Source: Amoebophrya sp. A120 (taxonomy: Eukaryota; Protista; Dinoflagellata). From it: a stretch of DNA of 64,000 bases. Every line of letters starts with the position of its first letter. Positions within the stretch are counted from its first letter, which is position 1. Made by a program: the position numbers and the translations under genes. The notes under the pieces were generated by a model. That model ran no database searches and had not been told where the DNA came from. It saw only the letters and a program-made list of their open reading frames with translations. Positions 346 to 57,600 of this stretch are shown here, piece by piece. Where the stretch lies: NCBI GenBank assembly GCA_905178155.1, contig CAJINV010000008.1, positions 434,001-498,000 of the forward strand, in the 5' to 3' direction.

Positions 346-349
346 AGCC

Positions 350-735: not shown

Positions 736-739
736 GACC

Positions 740-2730: not shown

Positions 2731-3206
2731 CTGGCGCTTTGAAAATAGCAGGCAGATGGGCCTGCCCGTGCTGAAGCGCCGACGACGGTTTTCCACAGAG
2801 AAACGCTGAGGGCTATTATTCATCTAGCGGAATACTATTAAGTCTGCAGGCTACTGGACACGGGAAGCGGGATAAGGCTAGTAACATGACACGTATACGA
2901 TCCTTCTTTTCTGCGGAATAACTACCATGGTGTCGCAAGTCCAGAAGTATTTACCGCCTCCGGTATCCAACAAAAGAAAAAAATCTTGTAGATACATACT
3001 CGAACTACCCCCATACACAGATTATCTACCATAACTCTTGGCATCAGGTGAGTATTTTCATCCCAAAAATGAAAAATATCATAGCCATGCATACAGGACC
3101 AGACGAGTGAAACTTATCGGGGACGAGCAATCCCGATGGAATCTTTGTAGAGTCGTTGCCGATGATGTTGTGCAAGTCTGGAACATACTGATCTTCTTGT
3201 ATCCTA

Positions 3207-5159
3207 TCACGAGTTACTTGTTGCCATAATTCTTGCAGTTCTTGCAACCGCGGCCGGCATGATCATGCATCGAGAATTTCCAAAAAGACGAATTTCTTTG
3301 CTGGAATATGGTGTCACGTCCACGTACTGGTCAAAAGCGTACTGGGGTGCGTGTTGGGTAGTTTTGATGGCGGCGTCCGTTCCTGCTCGGTTGGGATACA
3401 TGGTGCCATCTATGTCGCAGCCAATTTTTCCGGTGGCATTTTCGGCGTCGAATTGTAAGCGCATGTACCCAGGCGACCACTTTGGACGTCTCCGCAACCA
3501 CTCCGCGAAACTTAGCGTGGTATTCACCGTGTGGCGATTCTTGATTTTTCCCGCAATCGTGGCTTGCTGTAGCTCGAAATCATGTCCCCCGGGCTATAGA
3601 AGCGACGTGCCTGTTTTTTTCTAAGACTGCTGCTAGCCATTAGCACAAACACAAAGCGAAGCGTCTCCTTCCCTCCTGGTTGTCGTGCTTGTTCGTGCCA
3701 TGCAAAGTAAAAGAGAAAGACGGCAAGAAGCCATTAGCATGAGTTTCGTCCTGCGCTCTAGAGTGATAGATTTCATTAAATGATATCACTCGTCCAGCTC
3801 CAGAGCGGCACCACAGCAACAGAAAACTATAATTTCTATTTCCTTGCTTGGCTCTGGTGTGCGATTTATCATAATTTTCATCATAAAACGGCGTGTCTCG
3901 TAGGCAAAAAAAACATGGAAAGTTGGAGTCTCTCCTCGGAGGGAGCAGCATTCTGGCTGAAAGATCAGAAGTCGCTTCCCCTGTATACGACCGCTTGAAT
4001 ATGCTGGCTCACGCGGCGAAACGTCCGAGCCCCCTGATCGTCTGCAGGGGCGGCAGCGCACTGGATCTGCGCATCCCCCGATGCCAACGTCTTGTACGGG
4101 CCGTAAAATTTGCAGGTGCCGTTTTTCTGCAGCAAAAACCCGCCACAGAAATTCGAAGCGTATTCGCTGCATCGCTCACCGCAAACGTTGATTCGTTCCA
4201 TAATAACGACGGGGTCGACCACTGTTTGTGTTTGATTATTCCACAGATTTTGCAGATCGTCCGCACTGACCGAACTGGTCCCATCGCCGAAAATCGCGGT
4301 ATTCACCGCGCTATCAACTGTAAAAATGTCTGGGTCTGGAAGATTCTGAGATTTGTCATGCATATTTCGGATCACGCAAGTGGCGTCTGATGCAGGCAAA
4401 AGCATCACAGGTTTTGAGCACGCCTCCTGATGCCTGTCCCGCATGAGAAACTTCCTACTTGCGTGCCAAGAAGTGGACAGCTTTTGGCGCTCATGCAACA
4501 CAAATTTTTGTGTGTTCCAGAGTTTGCATCACAAGTTCCAACCCTTCCAGACCCAGACATTTTTACATTTGATACGCGCCCTCTACATACTGTTGCGAAC
4601 TGGTGTTGTACGCAAATTTGCAGGTGGCTCCTTCACGGACGCCCGTCGTCGGATTGTAGAGATACTCCTCTATGTACGAGTCCGACACAGCACGCGCTGC
4701 CGCCGCCTCCGCGGAAGCAGCCGCAAGTTCTTGGGATGTACTAGCGGTAGTTTTTCGTTGTCCAAAATTCCGCGAAGATGTTGTACTACCTGCGGAAGCT
4801 GCCGCGCTTGTCCTCTCTGCTAGTGTTTTCACAGAAACCAAAGCCTCGGATTTTTTCTGCGCAAAGCTCTGCTGGCGAGTTCCTTCTCTACGCGTTATGC
4901 TCGCCTTGGCCACCTTCGTCGCCGTGCTGGCCGTTCGTTTGCTTTTGCTGGCGGTGCCCTTGACAGCTTCACCAGTTTCCCCTCCCCGAAGAAGAACGCG
5001 CTCTCTTGCACTTTTAGCAGCTCGTGCTGCCCCAGCGGCTTGTGTACTGGTCGCTCCTCCTTTCCTGTTGTACACCATCGCAAAGCCACGGACCAGGACC
5101 GCAGTAGTGGCGCAGAGCCCAGAAGCCACGGCCCGTGTCAGAAGCCGCCGCCTTGCCAT
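3207..5159 (-). CDS. Putative secreted protein with a PAN/apple-like Cys motif (multi-exon; 3' end uncertain)
   Basis: Signal-peptide-like start MARRRLLTRAVASGLCATTAVLVRGFA. Removing the 4312-4574 element plus one CGCGC gives QQYVEGA|VNTAIFGD. CGERCSEYASNFCGGFLLQKNGTCKFY fits the PAN C-x3-C-x6-C-x2-F-x6-C spacing. ORF 3207-3527 is a probable further exon. Confidence 0.55.
4312..4574. mobile_element. Introner, family A (263 bp), TSD CGCGC
   Basis: TIR TATCAA(C/A)TGTAAAAATGTCTGGGTCTGGAAG at both ends. CGCGC at 4307-4311 and 4575-4579. Frame restored on removal. Confidence 0.93.
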
Positions 5160-6721: not shown

Positions 6722-9700
6722 CTACATAGTGCTTGCGAGTGCCGCCGCGTCCGGCGCCGGCTGCACGGCGGTCGCTTTGTCGGACAGAATCACTGCCAGC
6801 TTTGTGAGCAGCATGGTTGCCGTCTGTCGAACCTCGGTGGAGTCGCCGTAGCGCGACAGGTTGTGCAAGGCTTTGTGGCCTTATCCTAAGCAAAAACGTC
6901 CCCACCCCATAGTCAAGATGGGAATCTAGCAACACAAACCTCCAAGTTTTGGGAGCTGTGCATGACAAGTTTTCCTCTGCAGTGTAGTGCTGATTGGCAA
7001 GATAGGCTGCATGAGAAAGCCATTCTCCCATCCTGTTTACAGCATTACAAATTCCAAAACACGACTGGAAATTCCTCTCATGGAGCTGCGCATTACAAAT
7101 GTTCCTGTCATTGCGCATTTGCATGACAACTCTGGTGTGGGGACGTTTTTACTCAGGATAGGCCTCCGATCTTGTTCACCGCAATCAAATTGCTTTCGAC
7201 CTCGCACACCTTCAGGTACAGGTCCACGATCATTGGCGTTGGGCCCTGGCTCATCATGATCCGCTCCCACGGACTGCCCATCACCTTTGTCATCGCAGTC
7301 TTGTTATTGAAGGCTTGGATGATGTGCTTCGTGCAATACGTCAGCAAGTCGTACCCGCCCTGCTCCGACGCGAGCGCGACCTGTTGTTCGATGAAACAAA
7401 AACAGCTCATAGATGATATGACAGCTAGGAGCATACATCAAGAGGCTGGTTCCTTGATGTTCGCTTCACCTTCACGTCCACGATTGCATCTGCATGTCAA
7501 AAATAAATTCATGTGGTGCCGCCGCTTAGACAAGTAGAAACGCTGACTGCACTGACTGCACTGACTTGAAACAAACAAGTTCGAAAAACGAACCACCAAC
7601 ACAAGCTAGTATTTACCTTTGCGGTGAAACCGGTCGCGAGCCACGAGTTAATTACCGTTTGCAAGGCCGACCGAACCACGGCAGTGGCGCGGACATACAA
7701 GTAAAGTTTCTCGTCTCGCCCGTCGTGCAAGTCCATAAGGTCACTCGGCGCAATTTGCTGCGACAAAATGTTCTGGATCTTCATCAGCTGAAACAATGCC
7801 GCGCCCCGAATTTTGTCTGTGGCGGATAATTGAAAAAGTTGAACAAGTTGTACTTAGTAGCGTGCCATTAGTGGAAATGAGCAAAAGCTTCATCTTTTAC
7901 TTTACTTGGTAGGCTCGCGATCTATTCGGGTTCGTATTCATAAGCAGCAAAAAAGATCAACCCTTTGCTCGCCTCTTATGGCCTGCGAGTAACTGTCTGA
8001 CATATACAGCTAATGAATCCTGAGAGTAAGTCCTTTGCGAAAGCTTGAGAGAGCTTAGGCACTACAGCAAGACCAAACACCACCCGTTTTAGCGGTGAAC
8101 GACCAAGCGTAGGGAGTCGCACAGTGTGAGTGAATCCGAAAACTCACTGCTGCTGCGCTTCAGATAAGCATCACACTACCACCTCATCCGTGTGAGCAGA
8201 TCAACCTCCAAAGAGCCGCCAGTGCTGAACAACCCTCCTCATGTGCTCAACCTGACGTCAAACCGGATCCAAGAACCACAGCGCTACGAGAGGTGTCGCT
8301 GACTCTCAAACCGCCGGAGCGGAAGGAGAGGTATACCGACGCCACCGGGGGCCACAGGAAAACACGAAGTTATGCCCTGCGCCGCCAGTTGCCACCGCCT
8401 AGGCTTGGAGCCTTGCCTTTTCTTTTCTTTTATATGAGTTTTCTCCTTTCCAGCCCGGCGGGTGCTGGAAGGTGGCGCGTTTTTCTTTCTTTTACTGTTT
8501 TGCGCTCTTGAGTTTTTTTTCATTCTTTGGTCCCAATCTTGGCACCTCAAAGAATCTTGTAGGAGGTTGCGCGATAAAAGGAAGAAGGTCATTGGGGGTT
8601 TTCATCTTTGCAAAAGATCCGCCGGTCTTGCCGGCCCAAATCTGCCCATTGGCCAAACGGGAAAAAAAAAAGAACAAGCCCCACTCTCCCCCCCGATGGA
8701 CTAGATTCTTGCTTTCCTCAGAGTGGTGAGGACAGAAAGAATACTTTACGGCAACTACGAAGAAAGAAAAGTAAGAATCTCGCATAAGAAAAAGACACCG
8801 ATGGCATCTCTCAAGCAAGAGCTGGACTGCCGTTACTACCTGGCTTTCACCTAGGCATTACAGACATTCAAGCGGAACAGACATTCAAGCGGAACAGATC
8901 ACATCAAAATCACATCTTGGCGCATTTTCCATCCTATGTCGTTGTCGAACAGCAAAATCAAGACACAATCCTTGCCAGTGGTGCAGACACAATCCTGCCA
9001 GTGGTGCAGCAAAAAAGATCAAAGTTAGTACTCGATTGACTTGCCGCCCGCTGGTGCGTGTTGACGGCAAACGCTAGGGAGTACATGAGATGGCACAAGT
9101 AGCTAGAGTATTGGGACCCTGCCTTGGTTTTCGGGTCTCGTGCCTTCAACATGCGCTTGTCTTCCCGTGCAATCTCGTCGGTCAAAATCTCGGACAGCTC
9201 GACCGTTGGATCCTGGCACCTAAGCAATTTTTGTGAAGTATATGATGCGTGGACGTGGGGAAATCGAAACACAAAAAGGAACTTCTAGCGAGGAGAAACA
9301 CATATTCATATGCAGAAATGCAAAAACGAGCGGACACTAGCAATGATGTTTGCCACGGGTGGAGCTGAAGCGCATTGCTTCGATCGTTGTCGTCCGACGG
9401 TTCTTTGTTGGGAAAGAGTTTCAACATAAGTGCAATCACAGGTGCAAAAAGAATCAGTCGACAGTACTCGCAGACAGCGTCCCTGCGGTCCTCTTTCTTC
9501 TCCTCCTCCTCTGGTTTGATGGCTTCGTCCAGGGTTTTACCGCCGACAGAGCCGAGGATGTTCATAACATCCATTTTTGTGGACGTCTCCTCACCCGCGG
9601 AGCCAATACTCGGTGGCGATTTCTTTGGAGGCACCAAGCACTGACCCAAAATGTAAGCCGCCAGCGACCGTATGCTCCGCCCGAAATCCAGCTCATGAGT

Positions 9701-12700
9701 GAAGTTGAACCACCGAAAGATGAGCCCGTACCCCACGTTGGGGGAAATGCTGTCGGAGCCGTCCCTTGCGAAAGGCTGGCTCGGGTCCGGAATTACCCCG
9801 TTCGTAGCGAAATTTGATATGCCGATCAGCAGGTTCTCCTGGTGCCTGTGATGAAGAAAGTGTCACGCGATCTGTTCGAGGAACGATAATTTGAAAACCT
9901 ATTCGAGAAAAATATCCCCATGGTTTTGTGGTTTCTTTCTTGTATAATTGCCTGAGAGCAAGGCGCACCCAAAGATAATTTCGACAGGAAGTCCTGAAAT
10001 CAGATGCGAGTCGTATATTTTTAGTTATTGTACTGATTTCATGACTTTCTGCAAGTACATGATCGATCCTACTCGAACTACCGCAGGCGCAGCCTTGGGT
10101 GCCATTGATGAAAAGAAGTACTTTCTTATTCGACGCGCTATCAGATAGCGGTATCTGTATGTAAATCTAAATGCTGAAGAAAAACTGTTGTACTTGAAGA
10201 ATTTGCTGAGGAAGGACTCCTGGATCGTGTTGGAGTTCATTGGCAGCTTCAGGCTTGTCAGGATTGCGATTAACGTGAGCTGTGCGAGGTGCACTCGTGG
10301 GTATGGGAGGAGCAAAGCTCGCATCACCGGCGTTATCTGAAAGTTGTCGACTAAGTGCGTCAGGAAAAACTCGGGGGCTTCCATGGCTCCCAAGGATGCT
10401 GCCAGACCTCCTAGACGAATTGAAATGTCCCAACTCTGGTTCATTACATCGCACCTGTATTTTTATTCGAGAAATTTATTGATTTGAAGAAATTGAAGTT
10501 CAAGCTTTTCACACGAACAGGCGTTGGAAATGCAAAACAGAAATTCCCTAAATACATGTTTTGGTAACAGGTAGGGGGACCTACTTAATCTTAAGTAAAG
10601 TATGTACGTTATTCTGGCGAAGATGCTGCAGAGCAGGTCCGACTGTCGGAAGAAAGCCACGTTGAGTTTGGGTATGGTTGGTTCGTTTTCCAAATCTACC
10701 ACAGCCTTTATGCCGTCGTCGTCCTCGCCCTGGTCCCGCACAAGGCCGGCGCGCCGCACCATCGCCTCGATGTTGAGCGCCTCCACCTCGAGGAAAGTGT
10801 GCTTTTTATTGATCTCTCCACTAGCGCCACCGGTTTGCCGCGAGGTCGCGGATGAATTAGGGGCGTTTGCCCCGGTGGAACTGCTGCTGCTGCTACTCCC
10901 GCCCACCTGCACCGTGGACCCCTGGCCGCCGGCGCCTGCACTCGCGGAGGCCCCACTCGCGCTGGCGGTGGAACCCCCGGCGGCGCTGGTGCCTTCCTGT
11001 CCGACGCTGACGGACAGGTTGTCGAAGAGAACGTTACACACCCAGACCGCTAGCGTCCGCGAGAACACGTCTGGGTCCGCGTTAGACCGGCGTATTATCT
11101 GTTCATACATGTCGGGTGTAAACAACGTGCGGCCCGCCTCGCGGTGGGCTCGCAGCTTCGCGGCATTCCACTCGATCTGCTCCGAGAATCGCTTGTTGAC
11201 CGGGAGCGCGAGCAACTTTTCCACGGTCTTCAGCGTGGTGTAGGGCAGGACGTATCACACAGAAAAAAGCTGGCTGGGCATATTTGTAATGCAAAAATAA
11301 ATACACAAAAAGATCTGCGCTACATATCCGAAGCAGCATGCTATGGGGCCCCCCATGACAAGTTTTTCTGTGTATTTATTTTCGCATTACAAATATGCCC
11401 TGCCAGTTTTTTTCTTTGTGATAGGACGTCGTACTTAAACAGAAACGCGTTGTACGCGGCGACGGTGCGCAGTAGATGTATCAAATGTAAAAATGTCTGG
11501 GTCTGGAAGAATGCAACTTGTCATGCTAAATCTGAAGCATGCAAAAATCTGTGTTGCATGATGACCAAAAGTCGTCCAGTTTTGACCAAGTCGGGAGGGA
11601 GTTTCTCATGCAGGATAGGCATGAGAGAGATCGCACAGAATCTGTCATGCTAGGTCCTGCATTCCAGGCTTCATGGGTCATGGAAAACCTGCATGACAAA
11701 CCTGGCAAAATTCCAGACCCAGACATTTTTACATTTGATAAGATGGCGGTATTCACGAATGTCCGGACTCGCCAGGCTTCGCGCGAGCGCGCGCATGATG
11801 GTGTTCGCCCTGGTAGGGTTGGCCACGAAGTTCACCCAGAGCGGATAAACCTGCAGGAAGGACGCGCAGATGCGGTGCGCGTGGTGCGCCAACACCGTGT
11901 TGGGGTGGTTCTCCCAGATCAGGCATAGCATGCTGAAGATCTGGTCCATCCAATGCAGCCCAAGGTTCTCCAGAAACCAGTCGGTGTTGTACCTCGACAG
12001 TGCGCAGAGGTAAAACGTCACGAAGCGCTCCTCAAAGGACATGTCTGCGGGCAACGCGATTGAACCCACCTTGTCGAAAATCGTCTGTCGCCACCTGAAG
12101 AGAATTTTCATTATCCATTTTTTGCTTTAGTTGCTGCAGCTCTCGTTCCATCGTGCGAACGTCTTAGAGATCGCGATCGCCAACAACGAAACGAAATACT
12201 TACTTAAAAAGCAAAAACTCAAACCCTGTACTTTTTCTTTTGCGTGTATGTGCTCTAATGAATACAGACAAAAGCAGCTCAGCTTCATTGCATACGACCT
12301 CCCATACCGTACATAAGCGTACCTGTTAATCTGTGCGAACATGACTTTCGCTGTCGGCGCTGTTGCTTTCGACGCGAAATATTCTCGGCCGTCTGGGACC
12401 TGCAGCAAGAGCTGCAGTGCGATGGAAGCTACTTTTTCCGCGACCCCGGACTCGGTGTCGCGTTTAATCCAGCCGGGAGGGATAGCCTTCTGGAAGGAAC
12501 CTCCGATGTTCATGTTGACCCCCTCGCTACTGCCCTGCAGCTCAATCAGAAGCATATTTTGTTCCGTCGGCGTCGGCATGAGGGCCAGGAAGCAGAGCTC
12601 CAATATTCGGTTCTTGCAGGCAAAGGTGATCAGTTTGCCGTTCGGATCTTCCACCCCTGGTGGCAGCGCCGACGCGGGTTTCACCGAGGTGTACGCGTCA

Positions 12701-15700
12701 TACACGAGGGCCTTGAACATCTTGAGCACGCAACAAAGTATGGAATCGTACAGCCCAGCAAATGGATTTTTGGCTTTGCTGCTCTCGCTCGATTTGTTCG
12801 TTGAACTTCTGACATCCAGCTGCTGTCCGCTACTCGCAGCCTGAGGCTCCAGATTAGAGGTTGTCGTTCCGGAAGTTGAACTGCTGGCGCGCTGGTGCGC
12901 GGCGCTGGCAGCCTGTCCTGGTTGATCTGAAGCCTGGCCCGTCGTTCCGGTCGCCGACTCGGGGACCGCCGAGGTCGGTTCTTCGACCACCTCAATGGGC
13001 GGGTTTGGCAGATTGCACAGGTAATAGAGCAACGCGTAGAGGGCCTCGCAGAAGTCGGTTTCCTTGACTAAGCGGATGCGGTCGCGCACGTCAGATATTT
13101 GGACGATTTTCTCCACCAGCTGCAGTGTCATGGCCTGGATGTACACGATTTGCTCGTGCGGCCAGTCGTCTCGCGATCGCTTATGCATGGTATCCGGCGC
13201 GAAATTGATCTGGTCGATGGACTTGTGGTAGAGGAACTTTATGAGGTAGTTCAATCGTTTCGCGCGCCAAATGGCCTGCACCAGGTCCCCGGACTGGTTC
13301 AGCTCGTTGTCGAGGAGAAAATCGTGCATGAATCGCACCCCGGCTTCAATCAGTTCCCTCCCTCCACGGTGGCACATCTCCAGCACATTGTCGATTAGAA
13401 ACTCGTGCGCGTAGTCCTTCAGGCCCAGGGAACCGAGTACCCTGATGTTCTTGTAGGTCGCGATCACAATGTGCAGCATCATCCGGCGCAAAACGGGCGC
13501 GTCAGGTGTGGTACACTGCACCGCCAGGTACACGTACCCGTTCAGCGTGCCGTACTGCGCAAACGCATCGTAGATATCCTGAAAGTTGATGATGCTGTTC
13601 CCGTAGAACTCGATCCATTTTTGCACCACCTCCCGCCGGTTCTCGTGGCTGGACCGAGCCAGACCCAAAAACGGCCGGATGTCTGGCGTGGTGCGGATCA
13701 GCATTTGCAGCAAGTCGAAGTTCAAGTCCGTTGTCAACGCAGAGAACAACTTCGCGAGGAGCAGTACCCTCGCATGCGTTGCCATCGGGCTCATCATGCT
13801 ATCCACAATCTCCGGGAGCATGGCTCCCTTCAAGAGGTACATGCGACTTCGGTACTGCCCCTTCTCGACAAACTCCAGGATAATCTTGATGCTGGCGATG
13901 CAGAGCTCCTCCTTTGTGCCCCGCAGAATTTGCTTCCAGATCTTGTTCATGTCGATCTGCATCAGGATCTGGCAGGTCTCGTCGTAGGACTTTATCCCTC
14001 GGCCCTCTAAGAGACTCTCGAGCGCGCGGCAGGCCTTAATGCGGAGCGGCAGCGAAATTGCCTCGCAGATGTAGTACACACAGAGGTTTACAAATTTCTT
14101 GCGCATCGTCGCGAACGCTTTGTACTCGTAGAGTTCCGCCATCGTGGGCAGAATTTGGTTCAGGCACTCCGTCGCGACGACGAGCGCGGGGGCCGAATAG
14201 CGGTACTCTTCTATCAGCTTGTAAGCCATATCCAGCGTGTAGTCGAGCAACTTTGGTGCTTCGTCCAGCATCTTCTTCGCTTGGTGCTCGAGCAGGAAGC
14301 ACACGATGCGAACCCAGAGGAGCCGCTGATCAAAGTTGAACTGCGTGGGTTTCTCCTTAGCGGGCTCCTGCGTGCACTGCTCAGGCTCCTCCTGCTCGCT
14401 CTCGGCGTCCTTGGGATCCAGGATGCTGTCGGTTTTGTCTGTATCCAAAGCAGTTTCCGGCACCAGCGTTCCGTCCTCGTTGCGGACCATGTTTGCCGCT
14501 GCTCCGCTTGTGTTGGACGACTGCGAGGCGTTGCTGGTCCCGACATCCTTCACGACCAGGTGCGCCGGAATGGTCGCGCCCTTCGCCGCCTCTTTGGGGA
14601 GCTGGCAGTTGGTTGACAACATCTTGTCCACGTCGAAGTGCTTCGTGATTTCCCCCGTATCCGGATCGATCTTGGTCAGCATGGGCGCGGTGGGGTAGTA
14701 GTTTTCGAACAGGTTCACCAACGTGAGACATACCTTGAACTCGTTCATCAGCAGCTCCTGCGATTCCGGATTTTTTATGGTGTGAAACAGGATGAGCAGT
14801 AAGCGATACCGACCCATGCTCAAGTCCCGGTTGTAGCGCTCCACGTCCGTGGACAACCCATCCATAATGCGCTTCTTCTTCTTCTTACCCTTCCCCCCGG
14901 CGCCCAGCGCCTCAAGCGGTTTCCTCGTGACGTTGACCTCGAGAAACCGCTCGTTCCTTGATCGCCAGCCCTGCGCGAACTCGATGCAGGGATGGAAGGT
15001 AATTGCCTTGGGGCTGGACCTAGCCTGCTCCAGTACCATGTACACCAAATTGAGGAAAATGCCGTTCTTCAACTCGTTCAAGCTCGGCCCGTGCATGTGA
15101 AGTGTGATAGCCTCTTTCCTGGGTAGTCTGTCCCAGGCTGTCAACGCATTCGCGATAACCGTCGAGTCATCTAAAATCGCCTGGCAGTGCTTGAAAATCT
15201 CCGGCACCACCATGCTGGTCGACACAAACTGGGAGTTTCCGTACAACGCCAGCATAAACACACAGAAGTGCTTGTCCATGGGGGACATCAGGTTTGACCG
15301 CTCTTTCAGGAAGCGAATTACTACGGGGAGCAGGTCCACCCTGGCGAACGTGTCAAACGTCTCGTCCTTGATGATTTCGGCCTGTCGTGCCTCCAGCTGC
15401 GCCTCGCGGTCGGTCAAAAAGATTGTCATCATATCAAATGTAAAAATGTCTGGGTCTGGAAGAGTCATGCTGTTTTTGCATGACACAGAAGGTCTGGCAT
15501 GAAAGCTCTAGCATCACAGGTTTCGAGAAGCTTCCGCAATGCCGAATCCGCATGACAAATCCCCTAGTTCGCTGACAGAAAGTGGGCAGCTTTTGCTACG
15601 TATGCATGAGAGACTTTTCTGTATTCTGAAATACGCATTACAAGTTGCGTTCTTCCAGACCCAGACATTTTTACATTTGATACATCAGGTAGAGGACCCA

Positions 15701-46100: not shown

Positions 46101-49100
46101 CAGCAATCTTTCGAAGCGCGCGAAGACGAAAGCGAGTCAAGACATCTTTGTAGATTTCCCGCATAGCGTCCAGCGCTTCCGTATACCAAGTCGTCGAATG
46201 CAGCCAGAATTCCAGCGTCCTCCCCATCAGCAACGGCGAGGTGCACCAGGACCTGAGACCTTCGAACGCCCGCCACTCGTTTCCTGCCCCACGGGGATCA
46301 AATGTGTCTAGGCTGGCATCAGTTTGGTCAAACCCAAGCGCATGGATGAGGTCCCAGTGTCGCTGAATAGCGTCCATATCCGGAATCGACCGAAAGTGCG
46401 GCTCGTACCAGGTATACATGAAATTGATGTAACGAGTCAGCTTCATCTTCAAGTTACCCTCCAAAGCGAGATGCTCAGCGTTCGTAACAAAGTTACGCGG
46501 GAGCTTATTCGGCGTAATCCACACGCCACTTCGCGTTTCAAGGTCGAGGCTGACTTGCATCAAATCAGACGTTTTGCGGACACCACCTTCCGGGTTCTCA
46601 ATTCTTGCGTCCTCGATAATCTTCGTCAAGGATCTGGGGTCGCTGTCGAGCTGAAATAAAGGGAAGGCAAATTTTCTACAAGCAAACGTAAGTTGATGTA
46701 GTCCTTGTTTCCGATGAAGGTCGGTGATGTCAACATTGAGGTGGCTGCGAGTGCAGCCATGATGATTACGGCTTTGTTGTTTCATGTTCGCAACACATCA
46801 ACATTTGAGACTTGTTGTTGTTCTAACTCTAAGTCTAAGTGCACCAGTAATAAATAAGTACCGCTTTTTCCGCTTCCTGCTTCTTCGCCCCCTCGTCTTC
46901 GAATTTACCGTCCTCTGTTTGCAATTCACCCGCTGGAGTCACGCCCCCTGCCGACCCCAAAGGTGCGCTTGCGCTGTATTTGTTGTTGACGCCATCCATG
47001 AAGGGAGTGCTGGAGTTTTCATTCCAGCCAAAGTGGAATAGCAGCCCCTTGCCCTTGCCCTTCTTGCCGCCCTTCTTGCCTCCTCCTGCCGGCACGAGCG
47101 CGCCGCTCGCCGCGCCCGCGGTTCGGCCCCCCGCCGGCGTTCTCCCTGCGTCCACGTTGGCCGGTGTGATGGCGCCCCCCCCATCGATGCGAACGGTCTG
47201 CCCGGGTGTCATTCCGAGGCGTTCCCCGCCAGCCGGCGTGACAGTGCCACCCCCGTCGAAGGCGGTCAGTGTGCCGTCGCCGATTCCCGCTATCTGCGTC
47301 ATGGCGGCAATGTTGTCCCCTGGCAGACTGATTGCTCCGTCGTCCCCTCCATACAACGCAGGCGTGTTCCCCTGGTCGTAGTCCCCCATATAGACCGCGG
47401 ACATCCCACTGCTTGTGGTCTGCGCTCCAGAACCTATCCTGTGTAAAAATCTCCGTACCCCACAGCCAAGCTGGCAACTCTGCAATGTTACATACAAGTC
47501 CAGAACTTTAAGTATTCGGAGTCACGCTTCTATCTGTACCGTAATTCAGGATTATAGCAAGGACAGCAACATCACGACGAAGATGCCTGCTCATCCTGTC
47601 CTATCGTCATCCTGTTTGTACTTGTAGTTTCCAGCATTACAAATTCCGAAACACGACTGCGCATGCCTGTCAGCAGGGCCATAGACACTACAAATTTTCC
47701 TGTAGATGCAAATCTGCATCATGACAACTCTGCGGGCGGGATATAATTGTCACCCAGGATAACACCTGGCGTCTGGTTACCGCCGTCAAATCCGCGCCCT
47801 TCCGCTATGGAGTTCTCAAACGTCTTTACACTGATCGACGTCACGTGATTTTTGCCTGCTCGGTCAAGCAGAAGCAGAACCTCCTCCTCCATCAACATCG
47901 GCATGATAAAGCTAACCAGTAGCGTGTCAAGAATCTACTTGGGACGGCGCACTACATAGCATGATGGAGATCCGGAATGCAAGAAGCACAAAGTGAAAGT
48001 CCCGCCTTTTTCATCTCTTTCTCGTCTACTTGAGATATATTTTATCTTCACCAAAAATCTGGCTGCAAAACAATACGCCTATCTGTGAAGATCAGTGTAA
48101 CGTTTAAGAGAGGGTGCCATATCCGCGTTTGCCTTCCGTCGCGCCGTCTCGCGTTCGATCATCTTCTGTTCTGAGAGTTTTTCACCCGCCCAAAGCCTGT
48201 CGTACTCTTGCATAAACTCGCAGTCTTTGACATTGACTCTCCGGAATTGAATCAGGTCGTGGCAGTACTCGGGCATCTCCCTTTGCGCGGTCACCACAAA
48301 TTGGGCGTCAAAGATGGTCATCTGCGTCACTTTCCGAACGAGCTCATCGTATTCCAATATCTTCCACCAAATTTCGTTGGCCCACTCCAGGTCCTTTTGG
48401 AAGATGAAATCCAGGTCTGCTAGTTCCTGTAAGCAGTCCCTGCCGATCAATCGCCAGCCGAAGTCGTTTTTGATAGTTGCGGGCTCGTAACAGTGTCCGT
48501 CCCACTTTCCGCGCAGCATTTTGAGCACGTCTAAAACGATGTGACGAGACTTCTTCACCGAAGTGCCCGCGCGATCTTTAAGGTAGTCTGCAAAGTTTTT
48601 GGACCCACCTGCGGCCGCGGTGGTCGCGCTAGCAGGCGGCTTCTGGTTGATGATCCAGTTCGCCTCTAAGCTGAGTTCGGCTTCCGTAAACTCGACCCAC
48701 AGATCCTGGTAGGCCTTCACGCGGGCCTCGTTCGCATTCACGAGTCGTGGTTTGTCCACTTCTTGCTTCGTATTCTTGTCGAGTACCCGGTCCATCACCT
48801 TGTGACGCCGCACCTTGTCCCAGCCCTGCTCATACCTTCTCTGGTAGCGAAAGTACAGGCGTTCGGGCACGGGGAAGAGCTGCAGAATCTGGTCCGCTTG
48901 GGAGCGGTACAGCAATTTCATCGTCTGCCCCTGCTGCGCCCGCTGCACTTTAAGCCGGTTTCGCATGGCGACGGTGGGCTGCTGCAGAGCGACGCCTGCT
49001 CCCGCAGACGTCTTCATTCCACCCGTTGCACTCTTCGAGCCCATCGTCGTGGGGGGTAGCTGCGTCGGCTTTTCTACGTTCTCCCCCACCTGGGCGGCTC

Positions 49101-50074
49101 GCTCGTCTGGCGGCAGGTGATCCAATTTTCGCTGCTCCGGTACGGCATCGAGCCACATTTTGTTCGGGTCCAAAATCTCGTCCAGATCACCACCACCGAA
49201 CATTCGTTCGATGTCCAGCTTCTGGTCATCCGTGAGTTCCTGTTTTGCGCCCCGGAGCTCTGTGTCCTGCAGCCGTTGCCTCTGTAGACGCTCCTGCACG
49301 ATTTTCTTGGCTTCGCGCTCCGTGTGCTCGATCAAGCCGTCGCCGGTCTCTTCGGCGGTGAGTTGCGCGGCCCAGTACCCAGGTTTGCCTTCCCGTTCAT
49401 CCGCACGAGCTGCTCCTACTGCCCCCGGCAGGACGAAGTTACTCCTCGAGCCAGCGGCGCGACCGGCCCCGACATTCAGGAAACTGCCCGCGTTCTGTCC
49501 CGCGACACTGTCAAGCAAACTCTCCTCGACGGCTGGCGTGGCCTTCTTCAGCCGAGACAGCACTGGCGGCCCGCTCTCTTGTTCCGCGGGTCGCATGTCG
49601 ACATCCTCCCCGAGGAGACCACCCTCCGCGAACAGCCCCATTCCGTCGTCATTGCTGTCCTCCTCATCGTCAACGATGAAGTCTGATGATTTTATAAAAT
49701 CTGATGTTTTGGTGCTCCTGCACGTCTTGCATATGCATGGCAACTAATTTTATTTGCGATTATGAAACACGAGGACCAGCATAGCAGCTAGAGCTTTCGG
49801 CTTCATCAGGTGGATGAAAGCAGTTCGGGGTAGCACGTACGCAGCTAGTATAAGTTTAAGTATTTCCTAACTAAAAATCCCCACAAACAACATTTTTGAT
49901 TCTGATTTGCAGATAAGTACCGTCCATTTCCTTTTTTCGCTGCTGCTCCTCAGGATCGGAGTCGCTGAGGGCAACATCCTCGCTTTCCTCGCTGCTCCTC
50001 GGGTTCGGCGGGAGGTCGTCCCCCTCGGCTTCCACAGCCTCGGTCTCCAGGAAATCTTTCGCTTTATCCCCCAT
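34125..50074 (-). CDS. SPT6: Transcription elongation factor / histone chaperone SPT6, multi-exon and greatly expanded
   Basis: Spt6 motifs appear in order: acidic N-terminus SDSDPEE..EMD|DFIVDDEE; PVPERLY; EAELSLEANWI; AEPRLRTVF; WMQERRE..EFKDELRDVAR; YqgF-like AIVLGEYGEIL/PAQVVIGG; LSMARQAQEPL; HhH NFLPGLGPRKA; S1-like KGQIVQGEI; tandem SH2 (QGTVLFR, VFNDLDHFSNAYITPM, NPGHIVMAW, EHISVDHDGFR, FEKLDALYQWF). Last exon ends ...AKQQKR* (TAG 34125-34127). Exact exon boundaries are only partly resolved. Confidence 0.85.
41865..43076. mobile_element. Non-autonomous PIF/Harbinger-type TIR element (1,212 bp), TSD TAA, in an SPT6 intron
   Basis: ~48-bp TIR GAGGC(T/C)GTACGATTAAT..CCCCCTTTTCGATACCGAAAAGGGGGG(GG)TAG. 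TAA at 41862-41864 and 43077-43079; a 3-bp TAA/TTA TSD is the PIF/Harbinger hallmark. No transposase ORF inside. Confidence 0.85.
47435..47761. mobile_element. Decayed family-B introner (327 bp) forming a canonical GT-AG intron (47434-47765)
   Basis: Ends TATCCTGTGTAAAAAT... and ...AATTGTCACCCAGGATA. TSD diverged (GAACC/ACACC). On the minus strand CCAG|GTGTTATC...GGATAG|GTTCT gives NQTPG|SGAQT in frame. Confidence 0.8.
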
Positions 50075-51662
50075 TTGCGCTTTCTTCTAGGGGCTCAGAT
50101 CGTTTGCTACCTCCGGTTTTCTTCAGCACATGATCCTCGAGCGTGGTCGTCGTCGTCCAGAACCAGATGAACACGTCAAACTGCAAATACTACCGTCGAT
50201 GACCACACGTGAAAACTACACTGCTGAACCGCAATATGGAAAAGGATGTGGCGTCTCGTCGTCTGTCGATGGTCGTCGGAGAAAGGCTACAATGACGCCT
50301 GATCTATCAGGGAGGGAGGTGAAGTAGTCCTATCAAAGAAACTAACATTGCTAAGACTGCCACTCTTTCACTACAGAACAATATCCTTCGCAAATATTCA
50401 CAAGCTGTTTTTGGCCTAAGTACGTTTATCGGAGGAACTAATGCAGCAATCTCTAACCTGTAAATAGTCTCGTAACACAGACAATGAGTTAAAGAAGGGA
50501 ATCAACCTCAACGTCGTATATTTAATTTTCAACACACTTTTAGGCGACTTCGCGCCAGCAATAATTCGTCCCAATTTCATCTCCACGATCTCATGCAGAA
50601 GCAGAACGGTTGCATTTTATGAAATCAAAGAGCATTTATGGGAGATCGCATCATACTCATAGTACGACACCAAATAACTCATATCGGTTTCTCCGATATT
50701 TTTGGTCAACAAAAGAGGTGGTCATTTAATATTGGCGTCACAACATTCTGCTCCTCATGAAAGCAATTTTATCATGTGTTTCAGGTACCACGACAACAGG
50801 AAAATTTACAGAATGGATGGCGCAGGAAAATTCCAGTTTAAGTTCTGATTTCATCTTGCAGCCGTCCTCAAAATCTATTTCTTCATGATCTACTTCGCAT
50901 TTCATCCATTTCCTCTCTTCACGACAGTCATTGCACAACTGACTCACTCAGTGGTTCATTTCCTCGAGTGATAGATCACGTTGACTTCCAGACACGCAGA
51001 CCACAATGAAAATTGAGATCGGAAGATACAGGCGAAAATTGAGATCGGGTAAATGCACAAGGGAGCCGTTTCCAACAGTCTCTCCCGCAAATTTTTCGCA
51101 TCTTGCGGACAGAATCAATCCTGGCCGCGTCTCGAAAATTCAGCGATCGGGGTCAATCATGGTCGACGATCACCTGGGTATCTATTCCTTTTTTCACTTA
51201 GCACACTGCTCACGCAGAATGGAAAATTGAAGTGTCCATGTCTCTCTAGGGTACTATAGCAAATTGCAAACAGTTGCAGTTGTAGGGTATTTGAAGCACC
51301 GAAGCTTTTGCGTACGAAAATTTTCGCATTCCGCAGGAGCGTTCGACAGCTACTTTATTTGCGCTCATGATATCCTTTTCACACACCAAATTTTGATTTT
51401 GATATACTTCCTCGCACAAAAGATATACGTAGTCAGGTCGTGTGTGTCGGCCTGTGTGAATGCTTCAGACCTCGAAAATTGAAATGAACTAACCGGCTGC
51501 AGGTGCACAACCACGGACCGTGTCCCTCTACTCGTGTGCGTGTCCGGCAATTGCTGTTCATAGGAACAGCTTGCTTGGGTATCGTCACAGCGACGGCCAC
51601 GGCCACTTATGCAAGAAACTTTCATATGATTTTTACGCCTCAGTGGGACCATGATGCGCTCC

Positions 51663-54600
51663 TCAAACACAGAACTTCTGCCACCACGGGGAATACTGGG
51701 CGACGATCCACCACCGGTAGCCATTGTAGTGCGCGAAGATAGTTCCCTTGTACATCAGCTTGTATAGGAACCCGCCCGGCGAGAAATTGTGCAGTGCCTC
51801 GGCCCACGCCTCTACATGGTCATCGTGACGCGGCCTGGACTCGCAGGATATACGCGCACACGAAATCTCCAGGTGCTCGGTCGGCTTTATCTCAACGTGC
51901 ATGCGAGGGAGAACGAGTTCGGCCACCTTTTGCCTGAACCAGGACGATTCTCGATCCATCTGCGGCGGAAATGTATGCTACCAAAGTTTGTTGGCGCTTG
52001 CGCTTGCCGCTTGGCCAATTCGACCTTGGTTATTAGCACTTCGCTTGTGAAAGAGCAAAGTTTTCCTGTCGAATAGTATTTCACAAGTGCGTTCTCAAGG
52101 TCAAGGCGATCCCAAGGTGAAGCTCACGGTAAAATGAAAATCATATGAGTTTCGCTTTCGTCCTCTTCATGCATCACAAAAAATAAAAATTCCAAGAAAA
52201 CACATACAAGGTCTTCGACAACCAGGCCTCAGGGTTTCGGTAGCATACGGGAAACGCCCCATCGCCAAGTCCTCGAAAACACCTGGAGAGAGAAAGAAAA
52301 TAATTGCTTCAACATTCCTTTGTCTCTGCTCGGTTGACAGAATGAAAGCGATGCGCAGCGACTGGTAGCCCCGAGGGCATCCAAGGTCAACGTTAATTGT
52401 CCCATCTCTCTACACAGAAACAGGCAGGTAAGTAAGTAAGTAGCTCCACACCCAACAAACTCGGTGTCATGTACGAAGAAAAAAGATCAAGATGAACAGG
52501 ACGCGCACCCCCGTGCCCTCCCAGACTAAGACAAAAGCTTTCCAGACGAAATAAAACACATACACTTACATCAGATGTTTATACCCAGATACACCAGGAA
52601 ATCCCCCACGTTCCTTGCAAGGTAGCCCCGATGGTCATCCTTTTCGCTGTCCGGCTTGTACACCTTCTGGCGGTCCGTCCACCAACGTACTCCCAGCAAA
52701 CTTTTCTTCTGTGTGAGAGAGAAAAGAATGGCGTGCTCTAGCTGTCTGCCTTTCACTCTCTCAGTCTCAGTCTTCGTCTCACTTTAGAACGAGCGAGGAG
52801 CTGCAGAAAAAATATTCAGAACATGCACAAAACGCGATCGCTCGTCTTTGCCACCGATTCGCGCTAGCGACGAGAGTTCGTGTCTAGAAGTTACGCAGCA
52901 ACCAATCGCTGTGCCGCAGTGTTCTTTTCTCGGATATCCAGATAGTGCTTGTCATACCGCCACGCTGTGAGTAGCTCCGGATTGTCCGGTATCAAATGTA
53001 AAAATGTCTGGGTCTGGAAGATTTGGGTGTTTGTCATGTTGGAAGGCTAAGGGCAGGGCGTCCCATTCGTTTATAAACTTAAAACGGTAGCCACCTACCC
53101 AGCAAACTCTGAGTGGAATAGGCACGGGCAAAGCGATCTCTACCGAGAGACAGTCACAAGAGCTCCTGGGACGGCCGCGGGATGAGCTTTGTAGCTATCT
53201 GAGTAGGGATAACTTTGCCGGCGGACCCACCAGCGCTGAGGGATAAAAGAAAAGGTAAAAAAGCGGTAAAGTCATCTACTATGGCACAGTCCCAACTACG
53301 AAAAAACCCATCTTAAAAAAGTGAGGCAAGATTGTACGGGGTGTTTGTCGTTAAAAAAGTAAGAAAGTGGGTGTTTGTCATGCAAATTGTACATGACCCA
53401 CGATGCCTGTGATGCATTCTCTAGCATCACAGCCCTCGCGCAGGCTTTCTCATGCCTATCCTGCATGAGAAATGCCCGGTCCGGGTGGCAAAAATCTGAG
53501 CACCTTTTGCTGGCCATGCAATACAGTTTTTTGTATGATCGAGAAAGTAGCATCACAAGTCCTGTTCTTCCAGACCCAGACATTTTTACATTTGATATCC
53601 GGGAATGTGATCGGCTGATCCAGGCTCCAAAACGCCACCTGACTCGCCCGTATGGAAGCGTCAGGTTTGAAATCGACAAAGTTGAAATGATTTGTAATGC
53701 ATAAAATGGATACCAGTTGGAAGACCAATTTCCAAGCGGCGCATGACAAATCTTCGGAGCACCGGAATCCAATTTGTCATGCTGTTCGGGCACAGAAGAC
53801 TGCTTTTGTCATGCTCCTTTAGCAGCGCCATCCCAAACCCTAAATAGGCTCACAATCTGCCTCACTTGCCAGCCCGGCAAGACAGGCACTTCATGCCTTG
53901 CATTTTTTGCATGACAAATCATTTCAACTTTGTCGATTTCAAACCTGACGCTTCCATAGCCCGATCCACCATAGTATTCACGTCTGTCTTCCCAGTTTGG
54001 CCCGTGTTTGGGCTTACATGCTTGACGAGAGACACACTAGGGAGGAAGAAAACCAGCCGCGTTTTCTCCAGTCCAATTGGGTCCTTCTCATAATCATGAA
54101 TTTCGTACTGGTACTTCGGCGCCAGGAAGCTGGTGTGTTTCGTTTGTAATATTTGTCCATAAGTGAATAGATACTGATACGGTTACTCGCCACATGGTTT
54201 GATTTTGATATCAAATTTCATGGCGACCGACTGACAGGGCTTCGTCCTAATCTGAGTGTGCTCTCAGTTTACTTCTTTGAAAAAAAAACTCTTTCACTAT
54301 GACTGCTCCTCTAGAAGTAGAAATAGCTGTCACGTTAGTCGCAATAAAGAAAATTTCATGCAGCTCGTAGCAAAAAGTACTCTTTCAAGAGGGCTTTGTC
54401 CAGATGCCTCAAGCTGTCGCCCCAGAGATCGAACTTTACCGGCGGGAAGAGAATCCTATTCGGCCGGACGAGTAGCCGCATGAGCTCCGCCCACTCCCCT
54501 GCTGTGCTCCAATCGGACAAACTAGCGTAGGGGTGCGAAATGTGCATTGAAATTCAGGAGTCGGTTGTTAGGTCAAAATGAAGCTGCATGCACCAGGCAC

Positions 54601-57600
54601 CTCAAGTAAAGTAAGTATCTTGTGCAGTAGCACGTACGTATCTTGTGCAGGAGGCATACAAATACAACGCGAGAACCGGTCAGCGTAATGAAACCGCTGG
54701 CAAAAACCAACATGAAACGGGGCGCGTTGTTCGCGTCTCCCACTTTTCTTTAGTCCATAGTCCGAAGGGAAAAATAGAGAACCAGATGAATTTGAAGATG
54801 AGCGTGAACGAACTTTTACCGTGCGCGCGGCAAAATACACAACTCAAGCGGCAAATGCTGGATGCTGATGCACACATAAGTCTACAACGAGACTCGAGTA
54901 AACAGGGTGACCAGCCGATACAGGTGGTGCACGAATGCGTCCCGACTGGTCATCCAGGCAATGTTAGAGAAGTGGGATTGTCGCAGAACGTAGAGGTTCG
55001 GATCCATGGCACCAGATCCTAACTCGTGATTTACCTGCAACAGATTCCACGCGGTGGATCCCAACAGGGAGTTGTCCTTCTGCATCACGCGGGCGCTGAA
55101 CTGCATATAATCCGGGAGTTTTGGGCTCAGCTCCAAATTGTCTTGTAAAAACACCGCATAGTCAAACTGCAGGAACATCACCCCCAAGACCCACATTTGA
55201 TATATCCGCAGCCGCATGCCCGAGATGAAAAGACGCTCCTTGCGGATTCCTTAATTTCATCGTAGAGTAGTACCTAGTAGTCGTCCTTACGGTGGTCGAT
55301 AAAACGAACGCACGTCCTCAACACAGCCGACGGACGACGGAGCGATACGTTCCGCAAGTAGACAGAGGGCAATTTTTGCAAAGACAAAGAGTTTCTTCTA
55401 CTTCGTGACATAAGAGCAAGAGTTTTAGTTTACCGCAGTCGAATCTAGAACAGCCTCCCCTTGCTTTATGCTGTGCTCCTTAGGTGTTTATTTCCGCACG
55501 CCAGCGTCTTTTTTGGTGCGATATTTCGGAACTCCGCGTCCTTCCACTGTGTGTTCATTTGGAGGGCATTTTGAAATTGATGGAAGAAGGACTCCATTTT
55601 CTTCCCAGCTGGATTGCCCCCTCCTCCTTCAGCGTCCTCCGCCGCCTTTTCTTCCGCATGTTGCAGGCTTTGCGCAACAACCCCGCCCGCCGTGCGCGAC
55701 ACAGCGCTAGCACTTCCCGCAGCGTCAAACAGGTTTCCCAAAACCGGGAACAGCGAGATCCCAAGGTCCGGCAGTACCGGAAGATGGACGGACTCGCGGT
55801 CTTTCCCACACGTACTGTACGAAAGCGGTTCCTGGAAAGGGACCACCTTCGAGTTTTTGGCAAAACTTTGACACTCCTCCTTTCCCAGGTCCTGCAGCCA
55901 CGTGGGGTTGCACCGGGCCAGGAACACGTAGATATCCTCGACCTCGAGGGAGCGCAATCGCTCGATCTGCGACAGCACCACGCGGAACCGCCGACAAGAT
56001 GTCAAAATCGAGTATCCAATCTGAGAGTTTCATTTTCAATTTTGTTCTATCCCAGATCTGTCATTACGAGCACGCATACTCCTGGCGGTATAGGAATAAG
56101 TATCCTGTTCACCGCGCGCCGAATCATGCAAAATGTCAATCAACATCATTTATCGTGTCGCTTTTGGTGAAAAGCCATTGCATGATCTACAGAGGATAGC
56201 ACTCTGTGTATTACTGTACGTAGCCATCCGTTGCGCCATGGTGAATCCATCGCACAAGAAGACGTAAGTACTGGTAGGCCAAGGCGAATCGATCTTGGTT
56301 CCATGCCAAAAAGAGATGAAAAAATACTAATATACCCGAATTTTCGGTGTGATGTTGTCTTTCCCGACGTGAGGAGTGCGAACATCTTCGGCTGACGGCT
56401 TCGCGTACTCTACTTTGGCCTTTAGCTTACCGAGCGGCCTACGCAGCAAAAACTTGTCCGGTACCGGATGTCCGAGTATATCTGTTTTTGGCTCGTCAAA
56501 CCCCTCTCGTACGGCGACTTCCGACTTCCCCGCTAGGCCGCGACTCTCCTCCTTCTTGCACGTGAGTGTGCAATGGCAGTTGAGTATTTCGGCGCGTCCC
56601 TTGTGCACTGTGATCCACAGTTATCGAAATGACATCAAAGCTCAGTTGTTGCAATATCGTTTCCGTGGCACATCATCATCACAATCACTGCTGCACAAAA
56701 AGAAAAAGCATCTATCGCGCGCGACCAAAAGTAGAGCGCACTTTGCACCCCTAAGGACGAAATCACACTTCTTGAACCTCGCTTCGTTCGGAGATTGCTC
56801 AAAATACACTGGTGCAACAGACGTACATACAAACTTAAGGAAGAGGGTAAGTGGTCTAGTCTTCTCGTTAACGTATACTAGACCTCAGAAGTTCTCTCGA
56901 TTTGATAACTGTCGATCCGGCGTGTAGCGATATTGCTCGAGAGAGCTCTCGAGCTCGTCTTCCGCTTGTCCCTGCCCGTCAGCTTCTGCTTCTTCGGCGT
57001 CCTGACCAGCATCCTCCAGGGCGTCGCTGTAGCTTTCGGTCTTCGCACTGCTGCAGTCCTTGGCTTTCTTCTTGCGCTTACTCGCTCCTTATCAACTGCA
57101 AAAATGTCTGGGTCTGGAAACTTGTAATGCTGCGTTGGGAATAGTTAATGCTCTGTAATGTACAGGCAAGCATGAGAAATATTGTGCTGCGTTTTTCGCA
57201 TGACAAACTGCGTTTTTGCATGACAGGCAAAAGGGTCTCTTCTTGGACACGCATCACAGACTTTTTGGTCATGCCAGACAAGCATGACAAATCTCAAAAT
57301 CTTCCAGACCCAGACATTTTTGCATTTGATACTCCTGCTGCCAGTTCTGCAGCCGCAGCCTCCGCGTCGTCGACATCCATGTAACCTCCGGTATTTCTCC
57401 GGTACGCGCGCAGGGAGAACGGCGAGCCCCGCATCCACACATTGTAGAGGAGCACGAGGTAGAGCAGAAAGGCACACAGAAACTTCGGTCGGTCCCGCAA
57501 AACGTGGTCACAAACCTGCCCGCCGAAATCACTCGTCCCCCTCCAGGACGACCTGGGAGATGTTGAATAATCTGACAAACTAGTCGTAGTGGTGTTCCCT

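What the first reader, a model, noticed from the sequence alone, without database searches (positions are those of the whole stretch)
4312..57331. Fourteen TIR elements in four families act as precisely removed introns in coding exons
Seen: 14 elements (8 family A, 4 B, 1 C, 1 D; 171-327 bp apart from one carrying an insert). Each has TAT(C/G)...(C/G)ATA inverted ends and a 5-bp direct repeat (12 perfect, 2 imperfect). In all 14, deleting the element plus one repeat copy rejoins the flanking frames into sensible protein, including SPT6 and a >6,000-aa gene carrying nine of them. Established: TE-derived introners are known, and IR/DR-bounded non-canonical introners were reported in Amoebophrya (Farhat et al. 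2021, recalled), so the class itself is not new. Inference: these are active non-autonomous DNA transposons removed at the RNA level; the removal mechanism and mobilising enzyme appear unresolved.
Basis: partly seen in the sequence, partly recalled or inferred. Interest (0 to 1): 0.85.

Follow-up and report, generated by a model that had tools for sequence, protein, structure and literature searches.

The report
Amoebophrya introners cut at fixed offset
These are the already published mini-transposon introns of the marine parasite Amoebophrya A120; transcript contigs lack them cleanly, and worn-down copies point to one cut position (one base before, four after the element), likely made by a loosened spliceosome that reads the element ends instead of GT-AG.

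Summary
The 14 elements are real. The window encodes a protein named Amoebophrya sp. A120, so these are the introners of Farhat et al. 2021: the class is known. Transcript-like contigs lack 8 of the 14 and the 15th, by element length + 5 where the border is shown. The public protein lacks one more; five rest on frame continuity. DNA-like contigs keep them. Ten copies with decayed repeats all allow one register, N|TAT...ATA-NNNN|. Four force it, one of them passing over an available GT-AG register. Both intron classes start T+2 A+3; the odd class has A at -7 in 18 of 18. Best reading: a loosened spliceosome reading the element ends (inferred, 0.55); rival: a separate Euglena-like machine. No transposase or empty site was found. 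The papers I read call the border variable or unknown, though their table hints at it. This scan noted the same register on two other pieces of this genome.

The parts
4312..4574 (-). Family A introner, perfect 5-bp repeat
   Evidence: frame continuity only, no RNA laid here
6882..7160 (-). Family B introner, probably in the last coding stretch of the giant gene
   Evidence: no RNA laid here
11253..11423 (-). Family C introner (171 bp)
   Evidence: open frame; junction not displayed
11479..11740 (-). Family A introner
   Evidence: the X3 contig piece stops at 11741 and the record runs on 3041 nt
15432..15682 (-). Family A introner; intron 15428-15683 in the fixed register
   Evidence: X3 contig skips 256 = 251+5
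17740..18001 (-). Family A introner
   Evidence: X3 skips 267 = 262+5
23751..24005 (-). Family A introner with imperfect repeat; transcript keeps the upstream copy at position 4
   Evidence: X3 skips 260, 0 other letters; two registers possible
25556..25835 (-). Family B introner
   Evidence: X3 skips 285 = 280+5
29189..29468 (-). Family B introner, inverted relative to 25556 and 95% alike
   Evidence: skip inferred from record coordinates that leave exactly 24 nt for the micro-exon 29469-29492
29498..29759 (-). Family A introner
   Evidence: same inference as 29189
41720..43130 (-).
   Evidence: joint 41714>43131 skips 1416 = 1411+5 in X3, X5, X8
41865..43076 (.). Nested 1,212-bp inverted-repeat element between two TAA copies
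   Evidence: no Pfam hit in three ORFs; ends recur in L009
47435..47761 (-). Family B introner, repeat with 2 mismatches; intron 47431-47762 by the public protein; a GT-AG register exists but is not used
47802..48122 (-).
   Evidence: RNA pieces stop at 48122; P0001 joins across it
52990..53597 (-). Family A introner with a ~330-bp insert between 15-bp direct repeats
   Evidence: X8 skips 613 = 608+5
53651..53958 (-). Family D introner
   Evidence: X8 skips 313 = 308+5
57090..57331 (-). Family A introner
   Evidence: 951-aa frame needs its removal; joint not displayed
43266..43748 (-). Old non-canonical intron, unique junction (GT..GC), forces the fixed register
44451..44991 (-). Old non-canonical intron, three registers possible
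45871..46166 (-). Old non-canonical intron; excludes a cut flush with the element's 5' end
51970..52248 (-). Old non-canonical intron, repeat largely gone, unique junction (GT..TT)
   Evidence: X8
52708..52937 (-). Old non-canonical intron, two registers possible
   Evidence: X8
54537..54921 (-). Old non-canonical intron without a detectable terminal hairpin
   Evidence: X8
55211..55524 (-). Old non-canonical intron, unique junction (AT..GC)
   Evidence: X8
56618..56908 (-). Old intron predicted from the rule
   Evidence: restores the 951-aa frame; predicted 282 covered nt against 280 from X8 depth; joint not displayed
34128..50074 (-). SPT6-like gene, 3,580 aa, carrying 41720, 47435 and four older non-canonical introns
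   Evidence: P0001; Pfam SH2_2, HHH_7
6722..30281 (-). Giant gene with ARM-like repeats carrying eight, probably nine, elements (3' exons approximate)

Best explanation
These are short inverted-repeat elements with 5-bp flanking repeats that sit in coding exons of Amoebophrya A120 and are absent from transcript-like contigs, likely because a loosened U2-type spliceosome cuts one base before and four bases after each element. Shown: the anatomy; removal of element + 5 nt; one register compatible with all ten informative junctions; removal in both orientations. Inferred: a cut-and-paste transposase encoded elsewhere made the 5-bp duplication. The element's first bases supply T+2 A+3 Y+4, the same bases that ordinary introns here carry (GTAY), with G+1 no longer needed. 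The A seven bases before the 3' cut would act as branch point and ruler in place of AG. Pairing of the two ends would help bring them together but is not strictly required. Because 1 + 4 = 5, any insertion with a 5-bp duplication, in either orientation and at any target, restores the original codon sequence exactly, which would explain why several families with these ends spread through exons.
For: Removal: one 20,279-nt X3 contig skips four elements by length + 5, leaves exactly 24 nt for the micro-exon between two more, and skips two GT-AG introns, 0 other letters. X3, X5 and X8 skip 41720; X8 skips 52990 and 53651. Register: 24 junctions (22 displayed, 2 inferred) split into 8 GT-AG and 16 others, and all 16 admit N-T-A at +1..+3. 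Three unique RNA junctions force it. At 47435 the registers predict Ala, Val or Ser, and P0001 has Ala, although a GT-AG register giving Ser exists. Chance that ten informative intervals share one register under a uniform cut: 3e-5. All 13 ordinary introns seen start GTAY. A-7 in 18 of 18, including 4 of 4 forced junctions. Four old introns have no terminal duplex better than shuffles (z above -2), yet fit the register. In loci of a related genome, 154 oriented repeats show no pull to G+1 (41) or AG (15), and family A lies 22 with, 21 against, 14 unclear. Farhat Table S4: all nine commonest A120 non-canonical sites are NT-xx. The paper reports 83 of 89 spliceosomal proteins found.
Against: No lariat, snRNA or protein evidence was obtained; the spliceosome step is inference. 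Known spliceosomes rely on G+1 and the terminal AG (established knowledge), and a 20-58-bp stem would hide both signals until unwound. Ordinary introns here keep G+1 and AG strictly and lack A-7 (2 of 8), so the two classes are discrete, as in Euglena. Position -9 does not fit a U2 branch consensus (T in 5 of 18). For the 8 perfect-repeat introns the register was chosen by me, so their counts are by construction. The public annotation lists GC/GA starts and many AG ends in large A120 families (for example 44 and 79 of 331, 20 of 58 rows seen), which a fixed register does not predict unless aligners slid inside the repeat; I could not check that. All RNA support is assembled contigs of one study whose RNA label is a guess, and P0001 may rest on the same transcripts.
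Confidence: 0.55

Rival explanations
1. Same elements and same fixed register, but removal by a separate machine (a structure-guided nuclease and ligase, or a second spliceosome-like particle) that reads the paired ends, as proposed for Euglena nonconventional introns.
For: Neither G+1 nor AG is needed. Young copies fold with +2 paired to -5 at probability 0.65-1.0. Fixed spacers outside a stem are the Euglena code (PMC12501133, abstract and discussion). U1 snRNA was not detected in A120.
Against: T+2 A+3 Y+4 are shared with ordinary introns of the same genes. Four old introns lack a terminal duplex above chance, and five of 18 keep C/G at +5 and -8 without pairing.
Confidence: 0.33
2. The cut position varies within the direct repeat, as the published figure suggests, and the apparent register is chance or an aligner effect.
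For: Farhat Fig. 3 legend calls the sites variable and the border unknown. Mixed end dinucleotides in the public annotation. Only ten informative junctions here.
Against: Four forced junctions agree and six more allow the same register; P about 3e-5. The forced RNA junctions have a single possible alignment.
Confidence: 0.07
3. The gaps are reverse-transcriptase template-switch artefacts across a hairpin between short repeats, and real mRNA keeps the elements.
For: Hairpin plus short direct repeat is the usual setting for such artefacts (established knowledge). RNA runs hold element-exon borders from other loci (loose ends). No direct RNA reads were seen.
Against: Removal persists where the repeat (51970) or the terminal duplex (43266, 54537, 55211) has decayed. 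Depth inside the nested element is 0 in three RNA runs. Retention would put stops in all three frames of all 15 elements, including in SPT6.
Confidence: 0.03
4. The elements are cut out of DNA, or the assembly mixes filled and empty alleles.
For: No long DNA read was laid. X1 contigs reach 31 or more bases into an element at only 2 of 12 displayed borders, and 414 joints were not shown.
Against: X1 contigs, flat at depth 22-27 and holding the GT-AG introns, run 23-53 nt into the elements at 12 borders with 0 other letters. The contigs that lack the elements also lack ordinary introns. Old copies with decayed ends are removed too.
Confidence: 0.02

Closest known systems
Introner elements / non-canonical introns of Amoebophrya sp. 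A120 (Farhat et al. 2021, PMC7789003; sections 5, 11, 12, passages and supplement rows read)
   Same: Same organism by protein match; inverted ends starting TAT, then 7 bases, then A-run; 3-5-nt direct repeats; repeated families; non-GT-AG ends; co-oriented genes. The public gene model already removes them.
   Different: The paper calls the border variable or unknown and gives 8-20-nt inverted repeats. Here the inverted ends run to about 58 nt, the repeat is 5 bp, and one register fits.
A120 introner families of Gozashti et al. 2025 (PMC12130899; one section, passages, 22 of 58 dataset rows)
   Same: Mostly classed as TIR DNA transposons of unknown superfamily; many per gene.
   Different: Automated calls disagree on which splice site is carried or co-opted; no fixed rule in what I read. 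Their integrase-like family 38 was not compared with these sequences.
Euglena nonconventional introns (PMC12501133; abstract and discussion read)
   Same: No GT-AG; paired ends at fixed spacing from the cuts; coexist with ordinary introns; suspected MITE origin.
   Different: Spacers are 3 and 5-6 nt around CDG/CH'G with a purine starting the next exon; here 1 and 4 nt around TAT/ATA.
Fritillaria borealis non-canonical introns (review PMC11282704 section 6; passages of 10.1101/2025.08.15.670264)
   Same: MITE-derived, non-GT-AG, reported as removed by an altered spliceosome.
   Different: Favoured ends are AG-AC and AG-AT with a biased target; here the target looks free.
IS3EU/GingerRoot DNA transposons (PMC10045372; passages)
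   Same: TA..TA termini.
   Different: Usually 6-bp duplications; here 5 bp, and no transposase is in hand.

Membership tests
Amoebophrya A120 introner elements | Host is A120 | tested here: met
   P0001, named A120 by its sources, equals my spliced translation at 1875 of 1875 residues
Amoebophrya A120 introner elements | Inverted repeat beginning TAT, 7 bases, then at least 3 A | tested here: met
   14 of 15 at one end at least, read; family D lacks the A-run; definition
Amoebophrya A120 introner elements | 3-5-nt direct repeat at the borders | tested here: met
   5 bp, perfect in 12 of 15
Amoebophrya A120 introner elements | Removed from transcripts without GT-AG | tested here: met
Amoebophrya A120 introner elements | Repeated in families | tested here: met
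MITE (non-autonomous TIR DNA transposon) | Terminal inverted repeats, fixed-length duplication, no coding capacity | tested here: met
   232 of 413 end pairs have a perfect 5-bp repeat, at most 6 have 3 or 4 bp; stops in all frames
MITE (non-autonomous TIR DNA transposon) | Autonomous partner with the same ends | tested here: inconclusive
   none recognised among the 25 longest candidates in 0.6 Mb of loci; 0 hits in viral contigs; no whole genome held
MITE (non-autonomous TIR DNA transposon) | Empty sites or insertion polymorphism | tested here: inconclusive
   no fetched locus overlaps the window's exons; the wild DNA run covered only element sequence
Canonical U2 (GT-AG) intron | GT..AG ends | tested here: not met
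   only 1 of 15 offers a GT-AG register and it is not the one used
Spliceosomal intron (works like) | Lariat with 2'-5' branch; U2/U5/U6 dependence | not testable with these tools
   needs lariat sequencing or snRNA blocking
Euglena-type nonconventional intron | N3-CDG / CH'G-N5-6 code | tested here: not met
   ends are N-TAT(C/G) / (C/G)ATA-N4
IS3EU/GingerRoot | TA..TA termini | tested here: met
IS3EU/GingerRoot | 6-bp duplication | tested here: not met
   0 of 413 with a perfect 6-bp repeat

The most novel reading that the evidence does not exclude
A120 removes most of its introns by a single code, N|TA(T)S ... SAYR-NNNN|, in which a spliceosome has dropped both G+1 and the terminal AG and counts seven bases from an adenosine supplied by the transposon end. 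This makes every insertion of a 5-bp-duplicating transposon, in any orientation and at any site, a scarless intron, and outranks a GT-AG register when both are available.
Probability: 0.4. Interest if true: 0.8.

Novelty: already known. Interest (0 to 1): 0.45.

Why it matters
The elements are published, but how they are spliced is open. A fixed 1 + 4 register with an invariant A at -7 turns a bag of seemingly random splice sites into one rule. It gives exact predictions for lariat mapping and minigene tests, lets gene finders model these introns, and explains why unrelated families with TAT ends and 5-bp duplications can invade exons at little cost.

Tried and rejected
No whole genome is held, so no genome-wide count. 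Summed X1 depth over elements is more than 1,000 times that of the flanks but is no copy number. The 2026 raw RNA run X11 covered no exon of the stretch, so raw reads could not test retention or alternative cuts; X10 and X9 gave only short pieces. Two of three protein searches found nothing (length limits), so no ortholog from another strain was obtained. The longest end pair with a perfect repeat (L030) spans a host-like 871-aa ORF between two short elements and was rejected as an autonomous copy; L058 has no long ORF (these ORFs were judged by eye, not scanned). No element end in viral contigs; no Rfam hit in the window. A DNA-only test of which repeat copy decays was uninformative (30 cases). 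The len+5 score advantage is circular, because cases were selected at +5, and is not used. C/G mismatches between the two ends in 44 of 184 elements fit end reading by a transposase as well as by splicing. snRNA alignments in the Farhat supplement are figures and could not be read. Roy et al. 2023 and Henriet et al. 2019 were seen only as cited in reviews.
Full report
Observation. A scan for TAT(C/G)...(C/G)ATA ends with a flanking 5-bp repeat (at most 1 mismatch, at least 13 of 20 bases inverted-identical) gave 14 hits; 20 local shuffles gave 0-3. The extra hit, 41720-43130, is a 196-bp element holding a 1,212-bp inverted-repeat element between two TAA copies. All 15 have stops in all three frames, are 38-47% GC apart from the nested one, and rejoin a minus-strand frame when element + 5 nt is deleted. 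Family A copies share nearly identical ends but only 78% mean column identity.

Organism. The 872-aa frame at 37718-40333 found one protein among 3,165 candidates: P0001, 3,580 aa, named Amoebophrya sp. A120 by its sources. It equals my spliced SPT6 translation at 1875 of 1875 residues. Farhat et al. 2021 (PMC7789003; I read sections 5, 11, 12, search passages and supplement rows) describe A120 introners whose inverted repeats start with TAT, then seven bases and an A-run, with 3-5-nt direct repeats and 29,850 copies. So the class, and very likely these copies, are published.

Removal. I laid 11000-30999 and 40400-57800. In run X3 (RNA by guess) one 20,279-nt contig lies in eight displayed pieces with 0 other letters. 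Seven are contiguous in the record and skip 256, 267, 260 and 285 nt (element + 5) and two GT-AG introns. Between the last two the record leaves 24 nt, the length of the micro-exon between 29189 and 29498, so those two skips are inferred. X3, X5 and X8 skip 1,416 nt at 41720; X8 skips 613 and 313 nt at 52990 and 53651 (15 of 25 joints shown). Depth inside the nested element is 0. X1 (kind not on record) is flat at 22-27, keeps the GT-AG introns and runs 23-53 nt into elements at 12 displayed borders; only 2 of these reach the tool's 31-base bar. Of 15 elements, 9 are thus supported by contigs, 1 by the public protein, and 5 by frames only. The RNA runs are two samples of one study; the raw-read run X11 did not cover the exons. 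RNA runs also hold element-exon borders from other loci, so unspliced or DNA-derived copies exist somewhere.

Register. A perfect repeat hides the cut, but decayed repeats reveal it. The 24 junctions (22 displayed, 2 inferred) are 8 GT-AG and 16 others. All 16 allow an intron starting one base before TAT (TAA in one) and ending four bases after the 3' end motif. Three have a single possible alignment and force this (43266, 51970, 55211); 45871 excludes a flush 5' cut; 23751, 41720, 44451, 52708 and 54537 exclude early cuts. For 47435 I tabulated the residue each register gives: Ser for cuts 0-3 (which include a GT-AG register), Ala for 4, Val for 5. P0001 has Ala. With a uniform cut over six positions, ten such intervals share a register with P about 3e-5. 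The rule also predicted an intron at 56618-56908 that restores a 951-aa frame and matches X8 depth (282 against 280 nt); that joint was not displayed.

Signals. In this register 18 introns have T+2 18, A+3 18, T+4 17, C/G+5 18, C/G-8 18, A-7 18, pyrimidine-6 18, A-5 16, with +1 and -1 to -4 free. Eight of the 18 were placed in this register by me, so only the ten decayed ones inform, and four are forced. All 13 ordinary introns seen begin GTAY and end CAG. Young copies fold with +2 paired to -5; four old ones show no terminal duplex above shuffles, and a fifth none in the whole-intron fold. Copies 25556 and 29189 are inverted relative to each other in one transcript and both are skipped, so the signals lie in the ends.

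Related genome. The family A end matched 131 listed stretches in metagenome contigs, all of one assembly; 130 loci, 0.6 Mb, were read. Of 413 TAT..ATA end pairs, 232 have a perfect 5-bp repeat and 44 have 4 of 5; many of the rest are spurious pairings. Of 273 short ones, 263 could be scored and 184 oriented by a codon model trained on the window; in 154 perfect cases the repeat looks like flanking sequence (G at the future +1 in 41, AG at the future end in 15, a GT-AG register possible in 8). Junctions scored as coding in 162 of 227 against 482 of 1,627 random positions. Nearest-neighbour identity was 87% at the median, 98% at most, none identical among 264, so current activity is not shown here; Farhat report 97 identical pairs genome-wide. 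No transposase was recognised.

Mechanism. I favour a loosened U2-type spliceosome (0.55): the 5' signal overlaps that of ordinary introns, end motifs outlast both hairpin and repeat, and an invariant A a few bases from the 3' end is where a branch point with a ruler would sit (inference from established knowledge). Against it stand the loss of G+1 and AG, the poor branch consensus and the clean split between classes, which suit a separate Euglena-like machine (0.33). Template switching and DNA excision are unlikely for the reasons given under rivals.

What is known. Farhat's Fig. 3 legend calls the sites variable and the border unknown, yet all nine commonest A120 non-canonical sites in Table S4 are NT-xx, and the text places the commonest repeats four bases upstream of the 5' end: the register is hinted, not stated. 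Gozashti's dataset gives inconsistent carry/co-opt calls and includes GC/GA starts and AG ends that my rule does not predict (22 of 58 rows seen; 2 of 14 files not searched). Five searches and the passages read showed no statement of a fixed register; subscription papers and figure content were out of reach. After I had noted the register (notes 27, 51), two unreviewed notes of this scan proved to report it on other pieces of this genome; they are not independent support.

Verdict. Real, removed from RNA, already known as a class. The fixed register, the passed-over GT-AG site and the invariant A-7 make the open question of mechanism testable. Interest 0.45.

Noticed in passing
window 41865-43076: A 1,212-bp element with ~45-bp inverted ends and a TAA duplication (PIF/Harbinger-like by recalled hallmarks) sits inside an introner; the 1.4-kb composite is still removed exactly. 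Its ends recur in L009.
   Followed up: partly
window 53039-53382: A ~330-bp insert between 15-bp direct repeats inside element 52990; similar sequence in L003/L004 (80%) and in runs X8 and X9, so a separate mobile repeat.
   Followed up: partly
window 1-2750: Dense GC-rich arrays of 19-, 22-, 23- and 31-bp units; possibly subtelomeric or a low-complexity gene.
   Followed up: no
window 34128-50074: The SPT6-like protein is 3,580 aa, about twice the recalled usual length, with long low-complexity insertions; contig depth is lower over its 5' third in three runs.
   Followed up: partly
window 11479-11561 (run X11): About 160 raw RNA reads of a 2026 run carry a family A-like end at 90-95% identity joined to other flanks, with no cover of this window's exons: a retained copy or another strain.
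   Followed up: no
window 12095, 22090, 40254, 37595 (ordinary introns): Several GT-AG introns sit in 5-6-base repeated borders (CAG|GT), like the duplication around the introners.
   Followed up: no
window 29469-29492, 47763-47801, 52249-52282: Micro-exons of 24-39 nt lie between neighbouring introns and are kept in transcripts or in the public protein.
   Followed up: partly
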